From Chthoniobacteraceae bacterium (GTDB lineage: Bacteria > Verrucomicrobiota > Verrucomicrobiia > Chthoniobacterales > Chthoniobacteraceae), in the NCBI GenBank assembly GCA_035555975.1, contig DATMFV010000135.1:1-64000 (forward strand): a stretch of DNA of 64,000 bases, in the 5' to 3' direction. Below are positions 1 through 44,361 of this stretch, one piece after another. Both the position numbers and the translations under genes were made by a program. The notes under the pieces are model-generated. The model ran no database searches. It was not told the origin of the DNA and saw nothing but the letters and a program-made list of their open reading frames with translations. Positions within the stretch are counted from its first letter, which is position 1, and every line of letters starts with the position of its first letter.

Positions 1-3000
1 GATGGTAAAGGACTTCGAAGGGGTTGAGCCGCAGGGAGATCGCTTCCGCTGCGCCGGTTTCCAGAACGAGCTGCATCCCGAGCCCGTCCCCGGTCAATGC
101 CGTCGAAAGGGTCGCCTCTCCTGCCGATGCCACGGCGGCCACCGCCTTGAAGGCTTCGAAGTCACGCCCGGAAACCTCCCCGGTTTCAAGCTTTGTCCCC
201 TCCCCGGTCACGGTTTGCGCCACCTTGCCGCCGTAGTAACGGGCGACCACCGGGGCTTCGCCCTCGAAGTAACGCCGCTCCAGCGCCAGCGTTCCACCGG
301 CAGGCTGCGCCGTCTCGTTGCCGACGGCCCAAAGAGAGTCCCAGGCCGAACCGCCGCGGACGACCCACAGGGGAGCCTCCACCTTGGCCCCCGGCACCAG
401 TTTGCGACCGTGGACCATGCTTTCGATCAGGACCGGGTTGGCCTGCGTCATCCATTGGTAGCCGTGCAGGTAGGGCGGATCGAGGTAGACCGCCTCTCTT
501 AGCGCCAGCAGAAAAATCGACCGAAGGTTGCGACGGTAATACTCCCGCAACGACGCCGGGGTAAACTCCTCCGGGCGATAGTAGAGACCGAGTTGATCCG
601 CCCCGTAGCTTACCAGGCAGACGGTCGGTTTCTCTCCAAGCAGGTAGCGGTTGGCCCGGTACCCTTCGCCCAGCGATGAAAACCCCCAAAAGCGTTCGCC
701 CGCCTCGAAGGCGTTGGCCGAAGAGTGGGCCGAAAGCATGTAGGAGACCATCCCGAAGTCCGACCACATGCTCTGCCGGTACCCCTCGGTTGTGAAATCG
801 TTGATCTTCCGGTACCGGTCGACGTGCCCGAAACCGCCGACCAGGTAGGTTCCGCGATCCTGCGAAAAGGCCCGGCCCGGACTCTTGCGTGCGATCTCGT
901 CCACAAACCGGTAGGGCGAGATCTGGCACATGTCGTTGATAAACCCCGGTGAATAGCGGGCGACGAGCTTCATCAGCGCCACCTGGTCTTCGATGAACTT
1001 CTTCCCGAGCGGCGTCTTGAACTCGTTGACGAAAAGCCCCGTGGGCAGATAATACTGCCCGGCGACCAGCGGGTCGTCGCGGTCGTCAAACTTCGGGTAG
1101 AGATCCTCGACGATATAGGCGGCCGTCAGGTTCGGCACGTCGTGGCTTCGGCGCAGGGTATAGTAGTAGTCAAACGAATCCTTGTTCGTCTGAAGCATCC
1201 GTCTGCGAAGGTTTTCGATGGATCCGTAGAGCTGCTGGTGGCGCTCGCCGTGCGCGTAGTCGAGCCGGCCCTTGTACTTTTCATTGTTCCAGTACTTCTC
1301 CGAACCCATGTAGTCGCCCTTGGTATGGTAGGGACCATGCCCCCACTGGTTGCCGATGTAGAACTGGCGGGCGAGGTCAGGCAGGCGCATGTACTTGAAG
1401 TGTTGTGCCACCGGCATGTAGCTATAGATCGGCACATCGGCCACCTGGCGGTAGAGATCGCCAAACGCGGCATGGTAACGGTCGAGCGCGTCAAGGCTTC
1501 CGAAGCTCCCTTTTGCCGGGACGAGCAGGTACTCGATCTCAAAGCTCTCCCCGGGCGCGAGGACCAGCCGCGTCCCCTGCCGGATGACGCCCGTTGGCCC
1601 CACGGGGACCCATTCGGAGATCAGGCTGCTCAGGTTGATGTTCGGGTTGATCCCAAGACCCAGAGCCTTGCCGCTGCCGGAAGCGGCCACAAAAGGAAGG
1701 GTATAGATATACTCGTCGCGTCGGCGCGGAAATGCGAGCTGGTCCTGAATGCCGCTGCCGTCGAAATAGTCGCTTACCGTCGCACCGGGAAACGGAACGC
1801 CGAGCCGGACCTCCAGGCGCTGTTCGGTCGCCGAGCTGTTTTTGAGATTGACCCGCCAGCGCACCAGATCGTCCTCGCCGGAAACAATGGAGTGGGTCGC
1901 CTCGATCCGGTCGTCGAAACGCTGGACGAAACCGGCTTTGCCCGGGTTCGCCTCCCATTGCCCCGCCTCCACGGAAGCAGGCTCCGCCCGCTCCACATCG
2001 AAGCGGAGTTGCAACCCTTCACGCCCTGTTGCCGCTTCGCCAGCGGCGGTTTCCAGCCGGGCGAGATCCCCCCGCCCGGGGTCGAAGGAGAGCCGCAGCG
2101 GCCCCGCTTCCACCACTTTGAGCTCCCCTTCCGGCTCCCGCGAGACTGCCGCGGGAATCACCGGATGGCTGTAGCGGGTCGGGATTTCAGGGTGCTCCAC
2201 GGTGGAGGAAAAGGCATACGCCGGGCGGGCTCCCTCACGCCAGTTTGGCTCAAACCCGCCCCGGTACCGGGCCACCGAAGAGATGCGGAGTTCATCGAGC
2301 AGCAGACCGCTCATGGCAATCGGCCGCTGCGCTGCGGAGATGAGCGCCAACCCGTGCTCGCCCGTGATGTCATGAACGGCGGCGCGGCTCCCGTCGAGGT
2401 AGAACACCAGAGCGCCGTCGGCCCATGTCATGGCAAAGTGGTGCCATTCGTCCGACTCCAACTGGCGTTCGAAGCCGGGGGTCTTGCGGAAATCAACCCG
2501 CCCCTCCACGACTTTTCCCCCAACCGTCACCAGCTTGTAGAAAAGCTGTTGCCGGTTGAGCCGCAGGGTGGCCTGCGTGCGGGTCATTCCCACCCGCGGC
2601 CGTTCGTCGGTCTGTTTGTCGCCGGGGTCCGCCCCTTCCGGGCGAAGCTGCTGGATCGAATAAAAAAAGAGCGCGGCGTCGCCAAACAACGGCGCCGGAG
2701 CCCCCTCCTCTGCGGTGCGGAACCAGAACTCCACGGTTCCCTCGTCGTAACGGAGGTTGCCCTTCGGCCAGAACGCCCATTGCGCGTAGTCGCCCGGCTG
2801 CCCTTTGGCGGCCGCCGGGGCGCGCCCCCGCAGATCGACCCCTTTTCCGTAATAACCCTCCACCAGCGGTGCTCCCGAACCGGCGAAATGCCCCCAGCCG
2901 TTGGCGTAGGTGGCGCGGTAGGCATCGCCTTCAAACTGCCCGAGGAGCAACGTCTCGGCATCGGGCTTGAATGGTTGGCCCGCTTGAGGGTTACCGATAA

Positions 3001-3085
3001 CGCAATGCGGTAAAAGAAGAAGCGAGGCCAGAAAGGAAGCGGCTGGGAGACGGCGGGCGGGCCGCCAGGGAAGAAGGGGGTTCAT
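1..3085 (-). CDS. Large secreted protein with an N-terminal concanavalin/LamG-like domain. Partial: the C-terminus runs off the window start.
   Basis: Manual minus-strand translation from the ATG at 3085 is open to the window edge; the track omits it because it has no in-window stop. It starts MNPLLPWRPARRLPAASFLASLLLLPHC, a signal peptide, then a LamG-like block (TVEFWFR). The rest reads as protein (…YSYMPVAQHFKYMRLPDLARQFYIGNQWGHGPYHTKGDY…). The + ORF 1142..3013 is its antisense. Confidence 0.7.
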   Translation of the reverse strand, partial: MNPLLPWRPARRLPAASFLASLLLLPHCVIGNPQAGQPFKPDAETLLLGQFEGDAYRATYANGWGHFAGSGAPLVEGYYGKGVDLRGRAPAAAKGQPGDYAQWAFWPKGNLRYDEGTVEFWFRTAEEGAPAPLFGDAALFFYSIQQLRPEGADPGDKQTDERPRVGMTRTQATLRLNRQQLFYKLVTVGGKVVEGRVDFRKTPGFERQLESDEWHHFAMTWADGALVFYLDGSRAAVHDITGEHGLALISAAQRPIAMSGLLLDELRISSVARYRGGFEPNWREGARPAYAFSSTVEHPEIPTRYSHPVIPAAVSREPEGELKVVEAGPLRLSFDPGRGDLARLETAAGEAATGREGLQLRFDVERAEPASVEAGQWEANPGKAGFVQRFDDRIEATHSIVSGEDDLVRWRVNLKNSSATEQRLEVRLGVPFPGATVSDYFDGSGIQDQLAFPRRRDEYIYTLPFVAASGSGKALGLGINPNINLSSLISEWVPVGPTGVIRQGTRLVLAPGESFEIEYLLVPAKGSFGSLDALDRYHAAFGDLYRQVADVPIYSYMPVAQHFKYMRLPDLARQFYIGNQWGHGPYHTKGDYMGSEKYWNNEKYKGRLDYAHGERHQQLYGSIENLRRRMLQTNKDSFDYYYTLRRSHDVPNLTAAYIVEDLYPKFDDRDDPLVAGQYYLPTGLFVNEFKTPLGKKFIEDQVALMKLVARYSPGFINDMCQISPYRFVDEIARKSPGRAFSQDRGTYLVGGFGHVDRYRKINDFTTEGYRQSMWSDFGMVSYMLSAHSSANAFEAGERFWGFSSLGEGYRANRYLLGEKPTVCLVSYGADQLGLYYRPEEFTPASLREYYRRNLRSIFLLALREAVYLDPPYLHGYQWMTQANPVLIESMVHGRKLVPGAKVEAPLWVVRGGSAWDSLWAVGNETAQPAGGTLALERRYFEGEAPVVARYYGGKVAQTVTGEGTKLETGEVSGRDFEAFKAVAAVASAGEATLSTALTGDGLGMQLVLETGAAEAISLRLNPFEVLYH

Positions 3086-3146: not shown

Positions 3147-4241
3147 TCAGGCGGGCGTCAAGGGATGCCCGACGGTTTCGCGAACGACAAGGGAGGGCAA
3201 AAACGCTTCGTTCCGGTCGGAGAGGGTTTCATTGACGATCAAACTCGCCGCCCGCAGGCCGATGTCGACCCGAGGCCGTGAGATCGTCGTCAGGCGGGGA
3301 GGACCGCAAAGCGTCGGTGGAAATTCGAGTTCCTCGGCATCGTCGTACCCGAGCACGGAGATCTCTCCCCCCGGCTTGACGCCATGGCTCTCAAGGTAAT
3401 CAGCCACGGCCCGCGCGAAACTGTCCGAGTTGATAAAAAGGCAGCGGCCCGCCTCTCCCCGCGCCCGGAGTTTCTTCAACAGGTCGGCGGCGACCTTTCC
3501 GCTTCTCCAGGCGTACGGAAGATCGTAGTGGGGGTCGTAAAAATCCTTCATTTCCGAAACCTCCATCCCCAGCTTTTTCGCTTCCTCCATGAAGCCGAAG
3601 ATCCGCCCGTTCCACCGTTCCTCGCGGACCCAGTAGGCCAGAAGCGTTACTTTGCGAAAGCCCCGCTCGTGAAGGAACCGTGCCGCAAGGCGGCCGCCGT
3701 GAAAGTCGTCGATCACCAGCGAGTGAAAATCTTCCAGCGCCTCGAACAGTGCCAGGCGCGGCACCCCGGAGGCGACGATGGTGGCCGCCTCTTCGGGGCT
3801 GAGGTTGCGCCCCAGCACGATCAGGGCATCCACCAACCGGGGCGGCTGCACGAACTTCTGCAACTCCTTGAGATCGCCCGCCTTGAAGTAGTAGAAACCG
3901 AGGTGGTAGCCAGCCTTTTCCAGTTCATGTTGCAACCTGCGCAGGATCGGGAAATGAAGCGGGTTGTAGTAACTGAACTGCTGGTTGATATGAAAGCCGA
4001 CGTTCATCGTCTTTCGCAGGATCAACCCCCTGGCGGCAAGGTTCGGCTTGTAGCCCATCTCACTGGCAAGGGCGCGGATCTGTTCAAGCGTCTCGGGGCT
4101 GATCCGGTCGTTGGATTTCTTGCGCGGCATCAAGGCACGGGAAACCGTCATCGCCGAACAGCCCGCCCGTTTTGCGATCTCGTAAATGGTGACCCGCTTC
4201 TCCGCCTTGGGCCTCTTCTGCTGCGTCGTGGTCTGGTTCAT
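3147..4241 (-). CDS. LacI-family transcriptional regulator. An alternative upstream start lies at 4289.
   Basis: N-terminal HTH KRVTIYEIAKRAGCSAMTVSRAL, followed by a periplasmic-binding-protein-like sugar-binding fold. Confidence 0.8.
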   Translation of the reverse strand: MNQTTTQQKRPKAEKRVTIYEIAKRAGCSAMTVSRALMPRKKSNDRISPETLEQIRALASEMGYKPNLAARGLILRKTMNVGFHINQQFSYYNPLHFPILRRLQHELEKAGYHLGFYYFKAGDLKELQKFVQPPRLVDALIVLGRNLSPEEAATIVASGVPRLALFEALEDFHSLVIDDFHGGRLAARFLHERGFRKVTLLAYWVREERWNGRIFGFMEEAKKLGMEVSEMKDFYDPHYDLPYAWRSGKVAADLLKKLRARGEAGRCLFINSDSFARAVADYLESHGVKPGGEISVLGYDDAEELEFPPTLCGPPRLTTISRPRVDIGLRAASLIVNETLSDRNEAFLPSLVVRETVGHPLTPA

Positions 4242-4314: not shown

Positions 4315-5166
4315 TTAACGCTTGCGACGCCGGAGCCACCGGGCCGAGCCAAACAGCACGACCCCTGCGCCGAGCAGCCCGAGCGTCGCCGGTTCGGGAA
4401 TGGGAGCAGGCACCGAAAAATTGTCGATGGCGCTGACACCGCGATAGATGGAGTTCGCCGCCGTTCCAAAAAAGGCATGGACTTCGTCGCCGGCCAATGC
4501 CGACATATCCTGCGACTCAGGGGTGGTGAAAGTATGGGTCGAAATCGCCATCGGTGACCCTCCCTCTCCACCGAAAGAATAGAGCGTGACGGCCACGGTA
4601 TAGCGCTTCTCCTCCGACGAGTAAGTCACATCGCCCGAAAGCTGATACCACTCTCCGCTGGTCAGCGTCACGTTCTGCTCGGACGGTCCCTGGAAATTCT
4701 CCGAGACCCCTCCCGCCACGCTGTTGCCGACGATTCTGATGGTATCTCCGGCAGCCACCCTGCCAATCCCGAAATAGACCTGATTCTGCTCCACCGAAGG
4801 AGAGCTGCCGCCGCCTCCATAAAATGGCGCGTAAGTGGCGCTGGGACCAAACCCGATGAACGCTCCATGCCCGGCGCCGGAAACCGCCGTTACCCATTGG
4901 AATGAGATGGAGAGGGTGAAGGAAACATCCCCGGCAAAGCCGTTCTTCAACACCAGGGTCGAAGCCCCGCCACCATTGTTGGCGGCAACGCCACCGGTCG
5001 ACCCGATGCCCGCATTGGCTCCCCAACTCCAGGTCGTCCCTCCGGTCGAATTGAAATCCGCCATCTGCGACACTTCATTGAAGTCGTAAAGCGTCCGGGC
5101 CGTTGAGGCCGGTTGGACGGCCATCCATCCAATGGCCACACAAAAGAGAAGGAGTGGTTTCATCAT
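4315..5166 (-). CDS. PEP-CTERM domain protein (exosortase substrate).
   Basis: Signal peptide MMKPLLLFCVAIGW; a Gly/Ser/Thr-rich body; the C-terminus IPEPATLGLLGAGVVLFGSARWLRRRKR is a PEP motif, a transmembrane helix and a basic tail. Confidence 0.8.
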   Translation of the reverse strand: MMKPLLLFCVAIGWMAVQPASTARTLYDFNEVSQMADFNSTGGTTWSWGANAGIGSTGGVAANNGGGASTLVLKNGFAGDVSFTLSISFQWVTAVSGAGHGAFIGFGPSATYAPFYGGGGSSPSVEQNQVYFGIGRVAAGDTIRIVGNSVAGGVSENFQGPSEQNVTLTSGEWYQLSGDVTYSSEEKRYTVAVTLYSFGGEGGSPMAISTHTFTTPESQDMSALAGDEVHAFFGTAANSIYRGVSAIDNFSVPAPIPEPATLGLLGAGVVLFGSARWLRRRKR

Positions 5167-5224: not shown

Positions 5225-5304
5225 CTGAATGCGTTATGGATAACGCATTCAGTTTATATCATTACGAAGCGGTTGGAATGGCGATTGCGTTATCCATAAC
5301 GCAA
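5225..5304. promoter_or_regulatory. Two operator-like palindromes sharing a GCGTTAT-N2-ATAACGC core, upstream of the PEP-CTERM/LacI/secreted-protein gene string.
   Basis: 5225-5252 CTGAATGCGTTAT-GG-ATAACGCATTCAG is a perfect 13+2+13 palindrome. 5285-5304 TTGCGTTAT-CC-ATAACGCAA is a perfect 9+2+9 palindrome. Confidence 0.5.
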
Positions 5305-5373
5305 GAGGCCATTTACGTCAACGTCTCTTTTTGTAAAAATAAAATCCGACGAGTCTCCGAGGGCGAAAAGAAT

Positions 5374-5772
5374 TTAAATCTTCGTGATCCCCGCCAACCG
5401 GAACCCTTCTCCGACGAGGAGTTCGCGCACTTTTTCAAGCTGTCGGCCCTGAAGCTCGATCTCCCCCTCTTTCACGGCCCCGCCGCAGCCGCAGGCGACG
5501 CGCAACTCTTTTGCCAGCCGGGCCAGTTCCGCCTCGTTCGGCATGGGTTCAAACCGGATGACCAGCACGGTTTTGCCGCCCCGGTGCGCCGTCTCTTTGC
5601 GGAGGATCGCACGGCCCCGCGACTTGCCGGAGGGGGTGGAGGGGTCGCCCTGGGCCGGTTCTTCCCCCGGAGGCAACCCTTCCGCCGACAATCCTCCAAA
5701 CGCCGCGAAAAATCCGCCCGCGGGGGAGCGGTCGTGCGAGGTAGGCAAACGTTCCTTTTTGTCGCGCGCCAT
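5374..5772 (-). CDS. yciH: SUI1/YciH-family translation initiation factor.
   Basis: C-terminal GGKTVLVIRFEPMPNEAELARLAKELRVACGCGGAVKEGEIELQGRQLEKVRELLVGEGF matches the SUI1 fold. Confidence 0.75.
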   Translation of the reverse strand: MARDKKERLPTSHDRSPAGGFFAAFGGLSAEGLPPGEEPAQGDPSTPSGKSRGRAILRKETAHRGGKTVLVIRFEPMPNEAELARLAKELRVACGCGGAVKEGEIELQGRQLEKVRELLVGEGFRLAGITKI

Positions 5773-6691: not shown

Positions 6692-7426
6692 TCATCGCCG
6701 CTGTTTTAAAAAAGCCTGGACGATCGCTTCGGCGATCGCCTCGCGGTGAAGGGGATCGGCGCACCTGGCGGCTTCGCTTGCGTTGCTCAGGAAACCGCAT
6801 TCCACCAAAACTGACGGACCCTGCGAATAACGCAAGACCCGAAAATTGGCCGTTTTGACAAACCGTTTCCGGTGCCCCGCCGTGCGCGAAATGGAGGCGA
6901 GGAGATCGTAGGCCAGGCGGTCGGTCCCGCGTCGATTGTGGTAGATCTCAACGCCGTTGATGTGCCGTTTGGGCGAATCATTGTAGTGGATCGAAAGAAA
7001 AATGGAGTGCCGGTGCCGGTTGGAGATCGCCACGCGGGTGTTGAGCGGGATGAAACGGTCGTCGCGCCGGGTCATCACCGTATTGACCCCGGCGGCGCGA
7101 AGTTTGCGCTCGACCCGCAACGCCGTATCGAGTGCGATGTCCTTCTCCTTGATCAGCCGCCCCGTGCGGCGCGAAAGAGCGCCCGAGTCGTGTCCGCCAT
7201 GCCCGGCGTCGATGACGACCGTGGTAAATTTGGAAACTCCGCCCGGAGAGGCACACCCGCCCAGCCAGCCGACCATGCCCGCGATCGACAAAACCAACGC
7301 CACCCGGCGACACCACTCCCCCACCCTTCCGGATTCCGCTCTACGGCGCGCCGTTCCCCGCCGGGTTCGGGCCAAAAAAGGCCAAAAACCGGCTTGAAGC
7401 CGCACCCAATGAACGAAAACCTGCAT
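6692..7426 (-). CDS. N-acetylmuramoyl-L-alanine amidase (Amidase_3). The true start is probably internal, near the lipoprotein-like signal VALVLSIAGMVGWLGGCASP.
   Basis: VVIDAGHGGHDSGA … ECGFLSN motifs. Confidence 0.75.
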   Translation of the reverse strand: MQVFVHWVRLQAGFWPFLARTRRGTARRRAESGRVGEWCRRVALVLSIAGMVGWLGGCASPGGVSKFTTVVIDAGHGGHDSGALSRRTGRLIKEKDIALDTALRVERKLRAAGVNTVMTRRDDRFIPLNTRVAISNRHRHSIFLSIHYNDSPKRHINGVEIYHNRRGTDRLAYDLLASISRTAGHRKRFVKTANFRVLRYSQGPSVLVECGFLSNASEAARCADPLHREAIAEAIVQAFLKQRR

Positions 7427-43243: not shown

Positions 43244-43292
43244 TTGACAAAAAGCTGAACCGTTTTAGTATTTAGCTAAATCGGTTCAGCTT
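43244..43292 (+). promoter_or_regulatory. Sigma-70-like promoter (TTGACA-16-TAGTAT) overlapped by a 16-bp-arm imperfect palindrome, upstream of the LacI gene at 43315.
   Basis: AAGCTGAACCGTTTTA-gtatttagc-TAAATCGGTTCAGCTT; 15 of 16 arm positions are complementary. Confidence 0.45.
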
Positions 43293-43314: not shown

Positions 43315-44361
43315 ATGGATACCCTTTCCCAACCGGTCACAATTCCCACCCTCCGGCATGTTGCCAAACAGGCGCGGGTCAGCCTTTCCACCGCCAGTTC
43401 CGTAATGAACGGCCATGCCGAGCGGTTGCGCATCTCCGCCAAGACGCAGGAGCGGGTCCTGACCACGGCCGAGCAGCTCGGTTACCAGCCAAACCCGCTG
43501 GCGGCGGGACTTCGCCTCAAACGCTCGCAGTCGATCGGCGTCCTCTGGTCGTTTGCCGGTCCCCACGGTTCCAGCCAACTGGTGCGCAACTTCAGCGGGC
43601 AGGCGATGCAGCATGGCTACAGCACACTGGTCTATGACACTCTTAACGACCCGGAACTGATCGTCAGCCAACTCCGCGCCGCCGCCAAAAACCGGGTTGA
43701 CGGCGTGGTCTTTGCCATCGGGCGCGCTTCCATCAAGCCGTTCCTCCCCTTGCTCGAAAAACTGCCCCACGTCGTTCTGGTAACGGCCCGACCGTACGAC
43801 GATCTGCCGTTCCTCCAGATCATCCATTGCATGACCCGCGCCTTGCACGACGCCGTCCACCACCTGGTCGCCGCAGGGCGGGACCGCTTCGCGTTTATCG
43901 GCAGCCTCCCGGGCAACACCTCCAAAACGGAAGCGATCAGTGCCGCGCTCAAAGCCGCCGGACTCTCCCGGCCGTTGAGTCTTTTCCATTGTTCGGAAGC
44001 TTTCCCCTTTTCCCAGAAAGAGGAGGACTGGAGTTTTCGCACCCACCCCGAGTTTACCTCCGCCAACGCCATTTTCGCCGCCACCGACGAAATCGCCGCC
44101 GCCGTCACCTCCGCCCTTCATGAGGCGGGGCGGAAGGTGCCCGAAGAGGTCGCCGTGGTCGGCTTCAACAACAGCCCGTTTGCCTCCCTTTTCACACCGC
44201 CGCTTGCCAGCATCCAGCGGTTTGACGATCTCCTCGCCCACCGCGCGATGGAGCGGATCATCGCCGCCATTGAAGAGCGGCACGATGCCTTTCCCCATAC
44301 CGAAACCATCAACATGGAATTCATCTGGCGCTCCTCCGCCGGTGCCCCTCCCGCCCCATGA
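43315..44361 (+). CDS. LacI-family transcriptional regulator.
   Basis: HTH PTLRHVAKQARVSLSTASSVMNG plus a sugar-binding domain. Confidence 0.8.
   Translation: MDTLSQPVTIPTLRHVAKQARVSLSTASSVMNGHAERLRISAKTQERVLTTAEQLGYQPNPLAAGLRLKRSQSIGVLWSFAGPHGSSQLVRNFSGQAMQHGYSTLVYDTLNDPELIVSQLRAAAKNRVDGVVFAIGRASIKPFLPLLEKLPHVVLVTARPYDDLPFLQIIHCMTRALHDAVHHLVAAGRDRFAFIGSLPGNTSKTEAISAALKAAGLSRPLSLFHCSEAFPFSQKEEDWSFRTHPEFTSANAIFAATDEIAAAVTSALHEAGRKVPEEVAVVGFNNSPFASLFTPPLASIQRFDDLLAHRAMERIIAAIEERHDAFPHTETINMEFIWRSSAGAPPAP

What the first reader, a model, noticed from the sequence alone, without database searches (positions are those of the whole stretch)
5225..5304. Paired palindromic operator-like sites (GCGTTAT-NN-ATAACGC) in the 5' region of the PEP-CTERM / LacI / LamG-protein gene string
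A perfect 28-bp palindrome and a perfect 20-bp palindrome with the same core lie ~60-140 bp upstream of the PEP-CTERM gene start (5166, minus strand). The string continues into a LacI regulator and a giant secreted protein. Two spaced copies of one dyad are typical of repressor operators or DNA looping, and the co-transcribed LacI regulator is the obvious candidate binder.
Basis: partly seen in the sequence, partly recalled or inferred. Interest (0 to 1): 0.5.

Follow-up and report, generated by a model that had tools for sequence, protein, structure and literature searches.

The report
Paired LacI-family repressor operators
Two copies of one inverted-repeat DNA site in front of a three-gene operon are most likely ordinary binding sites for the LacI-type repressor that the operon itself encodes, so this is a standard self-regulated switch with a few small oddities.

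Summary
Site P (5225-5252, 13-nt arms) and site D (5285-5304, 9-nt arms) share the 18-mer TGCGTTAT-NN-ATAACGCA. It occurs nowhere else in the 64 kb window (about 3e-6 expected). The sites lie 72 and 128 bp upstream of the PEP-CTERM gene. That gene heads a minus-strand string: PEP-CTERM protein, LacI regulator, giant LamG protein.

They are best read as LacI-family operators for the co-transcribed regulator. The core GTTA(T)-N2-(A)TAAC recurs next to homologues of this regulator in other Verrucomicrobia. It is also about 20-fold enriched just upstream of 78 distant LacI genes that share the regulator's recognition helix (S-x-M-T-V-S-R-A-L). It matches the published E. coli GntR and Rhodobacter CceR operator class.

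A TTGACG -35 box sits 17 nt before a -10-like TATGGA in the centre of site D. Three other loci have the same geometry, so D probably blocks RNA polymerase. P lies about 35-62 nt into the leader. A third, weaker site lies about 90 nt inside the giant gene.

The oddities are GG/CC centres instead of the usual CG, and the site inside coding sequence. No binding was tested, and the effector is unknown. This is a new member of a known kind, of low to moderate interest.

The parts
5285..5304 (.). Site D (promoter-distal from the ATG): TTGCGTTAT-CC-ATAACGCAA. This is the proposed primary operator. Its centre holds the -10-like hexamer.
   Evidence: Searches show the sequence. One search shows TTGAC 16 nt upstream of the core, the same geometry as in L008 and L012 and within 1 nt of it in L003.
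5225..5252 (.). Site P (nearer the ATG): CTGAATGCGTTAT-GG-ATAACGCATTCAG. This is the proposed secondary operator in the transcribed leader, at about +35 to +62 if transcription starts near 5286.
   Evidence: Searches show the sequence. Downstream secondary sites are also seen in L008 and L012.
5316..5321 (-). -35-like hexamer TTGACG of the inferred operon promoter.
   Evidence: Read directly from the sequence. TTGAC is conserved at the same distance from the operator core in L008 and L012, and 1 nt closer in L003. The promoter is inferred; no transcription start data exist.
5293..5298 (-). -10-like hexamer TATGGA, 17 nt after TTGACG and inside the centre of site D. It lacks the usual final T, so it is a weak match.
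   Evidence: The consensus scan did not report it, because that scan requires T at position 6.
5253..5261 (-). Alternative extended -10-like element TGATATAAA directly upstream of site P. If it is used, P covers the transcription start and D covers the -35 zone.
   Evidence: Read. No comparative support was found.
2986..3005 (.). Third, weaker operator-like site. On the minus strand it reads TTGCGTTAT-CG-GTAACCCTC. Its left half is identical to that of site D, its centre is CG, and it is centred about +90 inside the giant gene, in the part coding for the signal peptide.
   Evidence: The 10-mer ATTGCGTTAT is expected 0.03 times per window. Analogous sites inside the gene are found in L004 (+44), L008 (+92) and L012 (+87).
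4315..5166 (-). First gene of the string: a 283-aa secreted protein with a C-terminal PEP-CTERM sorting signal.
   Evidence: Pfam PF07589 and the translation. Homologues occupy the same position in L002 and L003.
3147..4241 (-). LacI-family regulator of 364 aa, with recognition helix CSAMTVSRAL. It is the proposed binder of the three sites.
   Evidence: Pfam LacI HTH plus Peripla_BP_3. 100% match to P0001, 'LacI family ... Chthoniobacteraceae bacterium'. Helix sequence.
1..3085 (-). 5' part of the giant secreted Laminin_G_3 protein gene (1300 aa in full). It is the last member of the string that lies within the window.
   Evidence: Full length from L099. It is 49-50% identical to the giant genes of L002 and L003.

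Best explanation
Sites D and P, and probably the weaker site at 2986-3005, are operators for the LacI-family repressor encoded in the same operon (3147-4241). The operon is therefore a self-repressed unit. Without the unknown effector, presumably a sugar, repressor dimers occupy the sites. D overlaps the -10 element and transcription start of the operon promoter (TTGACG-17 nt-TATGGA) and keeps RNA polymerase off. P, 56 bp downstream in the leader, adds a second block or raises local occupancy. The site about 90 nt inside the giant gene may further damp expression of that gene. Effector binding to the C-terminal sugar-binding-type domain would release the repressor. What is shown: the sequences, the gene order, the conservation of the motif next to related regulators, the link between the motif and the recognition helix, and the conserved spacing to TTGAC. 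What is inferred: the promoter and transcription start, repression rather than activation, dimer stoichiometry, and the roles of P and the third site.
For: The two exact dyads are far beyond chance. The adjacent gene has a LacI HTH and a Peripla_BP_3 domain. The core GTTAT-NN-ATAAC, with at most 1 mismatch, lies in promoter regions or gene 5' ends beside homologues (33-48% identity) in L004, L006, L007, L008, L009 and L012, and in variant forms in L003, L013 and L014. That is 10 hits in 118 kb against 1.5 expected from shuffles, with a maximum of 6 in 200 shuffles. In 78 distant LacI loci with helix VS[APT]MTVSRAL, GTTA-N4-TAAC occurs at 0.72 per kb just upstream of the HTH against 0.036 per kb elsewhere. 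The other LacI in the window has a different helix and operator. TTGAC lies 15-16 nt upstream of the core in window D, L003, L008 and L012. The site positions (-72, -128), the even palindrome and the autoregulation match the family statistics in PMC4052901. The motif class equals the E. coli GntR operator ATGTTACCGATAACAG (PMC10450161) and the CceR motif, which was validated by EMSA and ChIP (PMC4323418).
Against: No binding or expression data exist. The two closest homologues (L001 and L005, 56-60% identity) show no such site, although both lie on short contigs of 3.7 and 5.1 kb and L001, the only one checked, has a different upstream gene. P and D have GG/CC centres, whereas all 23 upstream hits in the control loci and most family motifs have CG. 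The -10-like TATGGA lacks the conserved final T and was not called by the consensus scan. The motif pattern used for the comparison was derived from the window itself, and the comparison loci are few.
Confidence: 0.85

Rival explanations
1. The dyads are operators, but for a different DNA-binding protein encoded elsewhere in the genome. One candidate type is a Fur/Zur-type or other dimeric regulator that recognises GTTAT/ATAAC arms. The adjacent LacI gene would then be a bystander.
For: Only 64 kb of the genome can be seen. The GG/CC centres are atypical for LacI operators. The closest homologues, L001 and L005, lack the motif.
Against: The motif tracks LacI genes with the same recognition helix across dozens of unrelated loci and across the subfamily. 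All three sites in the window lie within this one operon. Gammaproteobacterial Zur boxes have a 3-bp spacing between GTTAT and ATAAC (recalled from memory, not tested), while the spacing here is 2 bp. No metal-related genes are nearby.
Confidence: 0.07
2. The palindromes act at the RNA level. They would form stable hairpins in the 5' leader of the PEP-CTERM mRNA, or alternatively a long D-P pairing, and so control stability, translation or termination.
For: As RNA the leader folds into two strong local hairpins, with MFE -48.4 kcal/mol and z = -3.4 against shuffles. P is longer (28 bp) than a typical LacI operator. D and P are also complementary to each other (I1).
Against: Neither hairpin is followed by a U-tract on the transcribed minus strand. 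The only terminator-like call is on the untranscribed plus strand. No Rfam family matches above noise. Any DNA palindrome gives a low folding energy. In related loci the sequence motif is conserved rather than pairing with sequence change, and it occurs in non-transcribed promoter positions. If transcription starts near 5286, most of D is not transcribed.
Confidence: 0.05
3. The dyads are non-regulatory repeats: a terminator for the upstream SUI1 gene, a REP/MITE-like element, or a chance duplication.
For: They lie in the 207-bp gap directly after the SUI1 gene stop at 5374. The scan flagged P as terminator-like on the plus strand.
Against: There is no U-tract on the strand that SUI1 is transcribed from. 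There are no other copies in the 64 kb window or in 10 kb beyond it. The association with LacI genes in many loci cannot be explained this way.
Confidence: 0.03

Closest known systems
E. coli GntR (LacI-family gluconate repressor) operators, e.g. gntT ATGTTACCGATAACAG; consensus ATGTTACCCGTAACAT (PMC10450161)
   Same: The arms are GTTA...TAAC separated by 4 bp, forming an even palindrome. The binder is a LacI-family repressor. Sites in related loci here are almost identical to the GntR operator (L006 ATGTTACCGATAACAA, L004 ATGTTATCGGTAACAT). As I recall, gntT carries more than one operator, but I did not check this.
   Different: The regulator here is not a GntR orthologue: the NCBIfam GntR models score 98.6 and 23.9 bits against cut-offs of 400 and 433. 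The window sites have GC at the positions flanking GTTAT (TGCGTTAT rather than ATGTTAT) and GG/CC centres. The regulated genes encode secreted PEP-CTERM and LamG proteins, not gluconate catabolism.
CceR/GapR of Rhodobacter sphaeroides (LacI family), motif (T/C)GTT-N6-AAC(A/T), validated by ChIP-seq and EMSA (PMC4323418)
   Same: The motif class is the same. The autoregulatory site at cceR is GCCGTTATCGCTAACATGG, which shares CGTTATCG with the window's half-site. At zwf, CceR represses from a site close to the promoter.
   Different: CceR is a global regulator of central carbon metabolism with many targets. The regulator here appears local, with three sites in one operon. Its overall similarity to characterised LacI proteins is low.
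LacI-family operators in general (Ravcheev et al. 2014, PMC4052901); cre-like TGTTATCGATAACA (PMC9141943); E. coli lac O1, O2, O3
   Same: The sites are even palindromes of 16-22 bp, lie -140 to -30 from the start codon, and regulate the regulator's own operon. There are several operators, one of them inside a coding region, as with lacO2 in lacZ.
   Different: The centre is not CG. That puts the sites with the minority of family motifs (49 TFs with a different centre and 29 degenerate, against 1173 with CG). The protein has no LacI-type C-terminal tetramerisation segment, so lac-style looping by a tetramer is not expected.

Membership tests
LacI/GalR-family operator (criteria from PMC4052901) | Even palindrome of about 16-22 bp made of conserved inverted repeats | tested here: met
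   D is 20 bp (9+2+9). P is 28 bp (13+2+13) and contains the same 18-20 bp core.
LacI/GalR-family operator (criteria from PMC4052901) | Consensus CG pair at the centre of the palindrome | tested here: not met
   P has GG and D has CC. The third site at 2986-3005 has CG. All 23 upstream hits in the control loci have CG. The paper lists 49 TFs with other centres and 29 degenerate ones, so this is an uncommon variant and not an exclusion.
LacI/GalR-family operator (criteria from PMC4052901) | Located about -140 to -30 relative to the start codon of the regulated gene | tested here: met
   The centres lie at -72.5 and -128.5 from the ATG at 5166.
LacI/GalR-family operator (criteria from PMC4052901) | A LacI-family regulator gene in or next to the regulated operon (autoregulation) | tested here: met
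   A gene with LacI HTH plus Peripla_BP_3 lies at 3147-4241, second in the same-strand string, 73 nt after the PEP-CTERM gene.
LacI/GalR-family operator (criteria from PMC4052901) | Motif conserved upstream of related regulators or regulated genes in other genomes (phylogenetic footprint) | tested here: met
   The motif is present in L003, L004, L006, L007, L008, L009 and L012, and in variant forms in L013 and L014. It is enriched against shuffles. It is absent from the short contigs L001 and L005.
LacI/GalR-family operator (criteria from PMC4052901) | Specific binding by the cognate protein, relieved by an effector | not testable with these tools
   This needs EMSA, footprinting or ChIP with the protein encoded at 3147-4241.
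GTTA-N4-TAAC operator class (E. coli GntR, CceR) | Arms GTTA and TAAC separated by 4 bp | tested here: met
   All three window sites fit the pattern ('N4' rows).
GTTA-N4-TAAC operator class (E. coli GntR, CceR) | The regulator carries the recognition helix S-x-M-T-V-S-R that goes with this motif | tested here: met
   The window protein has CSAMTVSRAL. The 78 loci with VS[APT]MTVSRAL show a 20-fold upstream enrichment of the motif.
GTTA-N4-TAAC operator class (E. coli GntR, CceR) | The regulator is an orthologue of GntR or CceR | tested here: not met
   All NCBIfam equivalog models score far below their cut-offs; GntR of Pseudomonas scores 98.6 against 400 and E. coli GntR 23.9 against 433. Identity to named gluconate repressors is 25-30%. 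The site therefore works like this class but is not part of a GntR or CceR regulon.
lac-type looping system (tetrameric LacI) | C-terminal heptad segment that joins two dimers | tested here: not met
   Query residues 15-357 align to Lac repressor residues 2-329, and only 7 residues follow.
Intrinsic (rho-independent) terminator | G+C-rich hairpin followed by a U-tract on the transcribed strand | tested here: not met
   On the minus strand, D is followed by TCGCCATTCC and P by GGGCAGACAC. The only terminator-like call is on the plus strand, where no gene ends.
Known structured RNA (Rfam) | A match to a curated covariance model at its gathering score | tested here: not met
   Only sub-threshold matches to eukaryotic miRNA hairpin models were found, at 19-21 bits against cut-offs of 44-110.

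The most novel reading that the evidence does not exclude
A Verrucomicrobia-specific LacI subfamily controls giant secreted proteins (LamG or PATR type) and PEP-CTERM proteins through a conserved multi-operator design. One operator is embedded in the -10 element. A second lies 56-124 bp downstream, often inside the part of the giant gene that codes for the signal peptide. In this organism the operators have non-CpG (GG/CC) centres in opposite orientation. This could mean a hinge-DNA contact that differs from the canonical leucine insertion into a central CpG step, or affinity that has been deliberately tuned.
Probability: 0.2. Interest if true: 0.4.

Novelty: new member of a known kind. Interest (0 to 1): 0.25.

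Why it matters
The result gives a concrete, testable regulatory link for an uncharacterised gene cassette in soil Verrucomicrobia (Chthoniobacteraceae): PEP-CTERM protein, LacI regulator, 1300-aa LamG protein, and probably downstream DUF1559-like and beta-helix genes. Identifying the effector of this LacI protein would show what signal, probably a glycan, switches on these giant secreted proteins. For the biology of regulators it adds little. It is one more local, autoregulated LacI regulon with the GTTA-N4-TAAC motif. The non-CG centres and the conserved operator inside the gene are minor points that a LacI specialist might follow up.

Tried and rejected
(1) The exact 18-mer was sought in the related loci and not found. 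Relaxing the pattern to the 12-bp core GTTAT-NN-ATAAC was what revealed the conservation.

(2) The closest homologues, L001 and L005, were searched for half-sites. They contain only a shared TTTGACGTCAAA palindrome, which in L001 falls inside the called upstream gene, and partial GATATCGA sites. Nothing was convincing. Both contigs are short.

A genome-wide regulon search in the source organism was therefore impossible.

(4) The single metagenome-contig scan returned mainly distant LacI genes of 25-29% identity, not close relatives. I reused them as a test of the link between recognition helix and motif.

(5) Terminator reading: rejected, because there is no U-tract on the transcribed strand.

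(6) Structured-RNA reading: there are no Rfam hits, and the low folding energy is what any palindrome gives.

(7) Zur/Fur box: the literature hit for GTTATCGATAAC in a mycobacterial Zur table is an incidental overlap with a different motif, TGAAAATCATTTTCA. It was rejected.

(8) Looping by a tetramer: rejected as the default, because there is no tetramerisation tail and no common helical phase among the 56, 111 and 124 bp spacings.

(9) A search for papers on gntT operator looping found nothing usable.

Full report
**1. What is in the sequence**

The 207-bp gap between a SUI1-family gene (5374-5772, minus strand) and a PEP-CTERM protein gene (4315-5166, minus strand) holds two dyads.
- Site P, 5225-5252, is CTGAATGCGTTAT-GG-ATAACGCATTCAG. 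Its arms are 13 nt and fully complementary.
- Site D, 5285-5304, is TTGCGTTAT-CC-ATAACGCAA. Its arms are 9 nt and perfect.

They share the 18-mer TGCGTTAT-NN-ATAACGCA. The central dinucleotide is not self-complementary: it is GG in P and CC in D. So 'perfect palindrome' applies to the arms only, and the two sites are inverted copies of each other (I1).

The centres are 56 bp apart. They lie 72.5 and 128.5 nt upstream of the ATG at 5166.

The pattern GCGTTATNNATAACGC matches exactly only at these two places in the window. With up to 3 mismatches there are 5 matches against 0.97 expected, and none of 100 shuffles reached 5. The composition-based expectation for the 18-mer is about 3e-6 per window.

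**2. The surroundings**

Three genes follow on the minus strand.
- The PEP-CTERM protein, 283 aa.
- A LacI-family regulator at 3147-4241, after a 73-nt gap. It has a LacI HTH and a Peripla_BP_3 domain.
- A giant secreted protein with a Laminin_G_3 domain, after a 61-nt gap. It starts at 3085 and runs off the window.

The regulator is 100% identical to a database protein named 'LacI family ... Chthoniobacteraceae bacterium'. The same locus, with an identical promoter region, occurs in two other assemblies (L099, L100). L099 shows that the giant gene encodes 1300 aa. It is followed by an SBP_bac_10/DUF1559-like gene and a Pel9A-like beta-helix gene.

**3. A third site**

The one-mismatch hit at 2990-3001 lies inside the giant gene, centred about 90 nt after its ATG, in the part coding for the signal peptide. 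Read on the minus strand it is ATTGCGTTAT-CG-GTAACCCT.
- Its left 10-mer is identical to the left half of D.
- That 10-mer is expected 0.03 times per window.
- Its centre is the canonical CG.

The octamer TGCGTTAT occurs six times in the window against 0.93 expected. Five of the six are in these three sites. No further site is found in the 10 kb beyond the giant gene's 5' end.

**4. Comparative evidence**

The regulator has few close relatives. Ten further subfamily members, at 31-56% identity, came from protein searches and were fetched with their contigs. A scan of species-representative genomes gave four more loci.

Gene context is conserved in three forms:
- PEP-CTERM gene, then LacI, then LamG giant gene (window, L002, L003). 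The giant genes are 49-50% identical.
- LacI, then a second giant-protein family (L004, L009).
- PATR giant gene, then a 240-aa gene, then LacI (L008, L012).

The exact 18-mer is absent from these loci. The 12-bp core GTTAT-NN-ATAAC, with at most one mismatch, is present in regulatory positions:

| Locus | Position in locus | Where it lies |
|---|---|---|
| L004 | 3968 (exact) | upstream of LacI |
| L004 | 5178 | +44 in the giant gene |
| L006 | 436 | 38 nt upstream of the LacI ATG |
| L007 | 5770 (exact; CCGTTATCGATAACGT) | divergent intergenic region upstream of LacI |
| L008 | 2144 | -24 of the giant gene |
| L008 | 2255 | +92 inside the giant gene |
| L009 / L010 | 1776 / 474 | -98 of LacI |
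| L012 | 4528 (two mismatches) | -43 of the giant gene |
| L012 | 4652 | +87 inside the giant gene; centre CC, as in the window |

L003 is the orthologous cassette. It has GTTAGCGTTAAC ending 5 nt before the PEP-CTERM gene's ATG. L013 and L014 carry the variant TTGATAnCGnTATCAA.

Across the non-redundant subfamily loci there are 10 hits in 118 kb. Block shuffles give a mean of 1.5 and a maximum of 6 in 200.

The weak point is that the two closest homologues, L001 and L005 (56-60% identity), show no such site. Both are short contigs, and L001, the only one whose neighbours I checked, has a different upstream gene.

**5. The link between recognition helix and motif**

The metagenome scan returned 79 new loci, nearly all distant LacI genes of 25-29% identity. 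I reused them as a control set. In 78 of them the helix VS[APT]MTVSR[AS]L could be located. The window protein has CSAMTVSRAL.
- In these loci GTTA-N4-TAAC occurs at 0.72 per kb in the zone from -350 to +60 around the HTH codons. Elsewhere it occurs at 0.036 per kb, a 20-fold enrichment.
- 21 of the 78 loci have a site in that zone. All 23 in-zone sites have a CG centre.
- Many are exact ATGTTATCGATAACAT sites 30-230 nt upstream of the gene.

So proteins that share this helix, whatever their overall similarity, tend to sit behind this motif.

The only other LacI gene in the window (43315-44361) has the helix VSLSTASSVM. Its upstream dyad is different: AAGCTGAACCGTTTTAG-N7-CTAAATCGGTTCAGCTT. 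The two regulators have different operators.

**6. Promoter geometry (inferred)**

On the minus strand, TTGACG (5321-5316) is followed after 17 nt by TATGGA (5298-5293). TATGGA is the centre of site D.

TTGAC lies 16 nt upstream of the operator core in L008 and L012, as in window D, and 15 nt upstream in L003. In each case a -10-like hexamer (TATCGA, TATCGA, TAGCGT) falls in the operator centre. L004 and L006 have TTGACG 10 and 20 nt upstream.

This repeated spacing in independent loci suggests that D is the primary operator, overlapping the -10 element and the transcription start near 5286. P would then lie at about +35 to +62 in a leader of roughly 120 nt.

Two cautions apply.
- TATGGA lacks the usual final T, and the generic promoter scan did not call it.
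- An alternative extended -10-like element, TGATATAAA (5261-5253), sits directly upstream of P. With that promoter, P would cover the start site.

In either case an operator overlaps the core promoter, which is the classical arrangement for repression.

Secondary sites downstream of the primary one also occur in L008 (111 bp away) and L012 (124 bp away). The three spacings (56, 111, 124 bp) share no helical phase. The protein aligns to Lac repressor residues 2-329 with only 7 residues left over, so it has no tetramerisation tail. I therefore favour independent or weakly cooperative binding of dimers over a lac-style loop.

**7. Rivals**

- *Terminator.* On the transcribed strand neither hairpin is followed by a U-tract. 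The only terminator-like call is on the plus strand, where no gene ends.
- *Structured RNA.* Rfam gives only sub-threshold matches to eukaryotic miRNA hairpin models. The low folding energy (-48.4 kcal/mol, z = -3.4) is what two palindromes must give. In related loci it is the sequence that is conserved, including at untranscribed promoter positions.
- *Another regulator.* This cannot be excluded from 64 kb, but the helix-motif link argues against it, and so does the confinement of all three sites to this operon.
- *Repeat element.* There are no other copies.
- *Zur box.* The one literature hit is an incidental overlap with a different motif.

**8. Comparison with what is known**

The family survey of Ravcheev et al. 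(PMC4052901) reports the following.
- LacI-family motifs are even palindromes of 16-22 nt.
- The centre is CG in 1173 TFs, different in 49 and degenerate in 29.
- 72% of the regulators are autoregulated.
- More than 75% of sites lie between -140 and -30.
- Fewer than 1% lie in coding regions.

The window's sites fit in length, position and autoregulation. They fall in the minority for the centre. The third site falls in the rare class of sites inside coding sequence.

The motif class itself is known.
- The E. coli GntR operator is ATGTTACCGATAACAG, with consensus ATGTTACCCGTAACAT (PMC10450161).
- CceR of Rhodobacter binds (T/C)GTT-N6-AAC(A/T). Its autoregulatory site is GCCGTTATCGCTAACATGG, and binding was shown by ChIP-seq and EMSA (PMC4323418).
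- TGTTATCGATAACA has been described as cre-like (PMC9141943).

The regulator here is not an orthologue of any named family member. All NCBIfam equivalog models score far below their cut-offs, and the best solved relatives align at E of about 1e-17. It works like a GntR/CceR-class operator system without belonging to those regulons.

**9. Verdict**

This is a local, self-repressed LacI-family operon with two strong operators and probably a third weak one.

It is a new member of a known kind. The modest points of interest are:
- the GG/CC centres, in opposite orientation in the two sites;
- the recurring operator about 44-92 nt inside giant secreted-protein genes in four loci. In L004 the site is in a different reading frame from the window and L008/L012, which argues for a constraint at the DNA level;
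- the association of this LacI subfamily with PEP-CTERM and giant LamG or PATR proteins in Verrucomicrobia.

Binding, the effector, the transcription start and the stoichiometry all remain untested.

Noticed in passing
window 43246-43292: Before the second LacI gene (43315-44361, plus strand) a TTGACA box is followed by a 41-bp imperfect inverted repeat, AAGCTGAACCGTTTTAG-N7-CTAAATCGGTTCAGCTT. This amounts to two CG-centred LacI-type sites about 24 bp apart. Both the operator and the recognition helix (VSLSTASSVM) differ from those of the finding.
   Followed up: partly
L099 11157-17136 (same organism, beyond the window start): The giant LamG gene encodes 1300 aa. It is followed on the same strand by an SBP_bac_10/DUF1559-like gene (243 aa) and a Pel9A-like beta-helix gene (457 aa). 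An SBP_bac_10-like gene also follows the giant gene in L009 and precedes the giant genes in L012, which suggests a larger conserved cassette.
   Followed up: partly
L004 5178-5189, L008 2255-2266, L012 4652-4663, window 2990-3001: Operator-like sites lie 44-92 nt inside giant secreted-protein genes, in the part coding for the signal peptide, in four loci. The window, L008 and L012 share one reading frame (x-I-[GDH]-N), while L004 uses another. Published family statistics put fewer than 1% of LacI sites in coding regions.
   Followed up: partly
L006 474-2327: The LacI homologue's reading frame continues without a stop (617 aa) into a protein with a prepilin-type N-terminal segment (FTLVELLVVIAI) and a DUF1559-like sequence. 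This is either a real fusion or an assembly frameshift.
   Followed up: no
L001 1650-2993 (protein P0002): The closest homologue of the regulator (56% identity) carries an extra C-terminal tail of about 85 aa rich in Lys, Ala and Pro, resembling histone H1. This is unusual for a LacI-family protein.
   Followed up: no
window 6827-6834: There is one more copy of the half-site octamer TGCGTTAT (minus strand), inside the N-acetylmuramoyl-L-alanine amidase gene (6692-7426). It is probably chance, since about 0.9 copies are expected per window.
   Followed up: no
L009 about 1845-1857: TGTTACCGTAACA has the same arms but a 3-bp rather than 4-bp spacing. It lies just upstream of the LacI ATG and after a TTGACA box. 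The locus also has a regular site at 1776-1787.
   Followed up: no
L042 2819, 7099, 9013: This metagenome locus has a distant LacI gene with the same recognition helix and holds three exact GTTATCGATAAC sites spread over 6 kb. It looks like a multi-operon local regulon using the canonical form of the motif.
   Followed up: no
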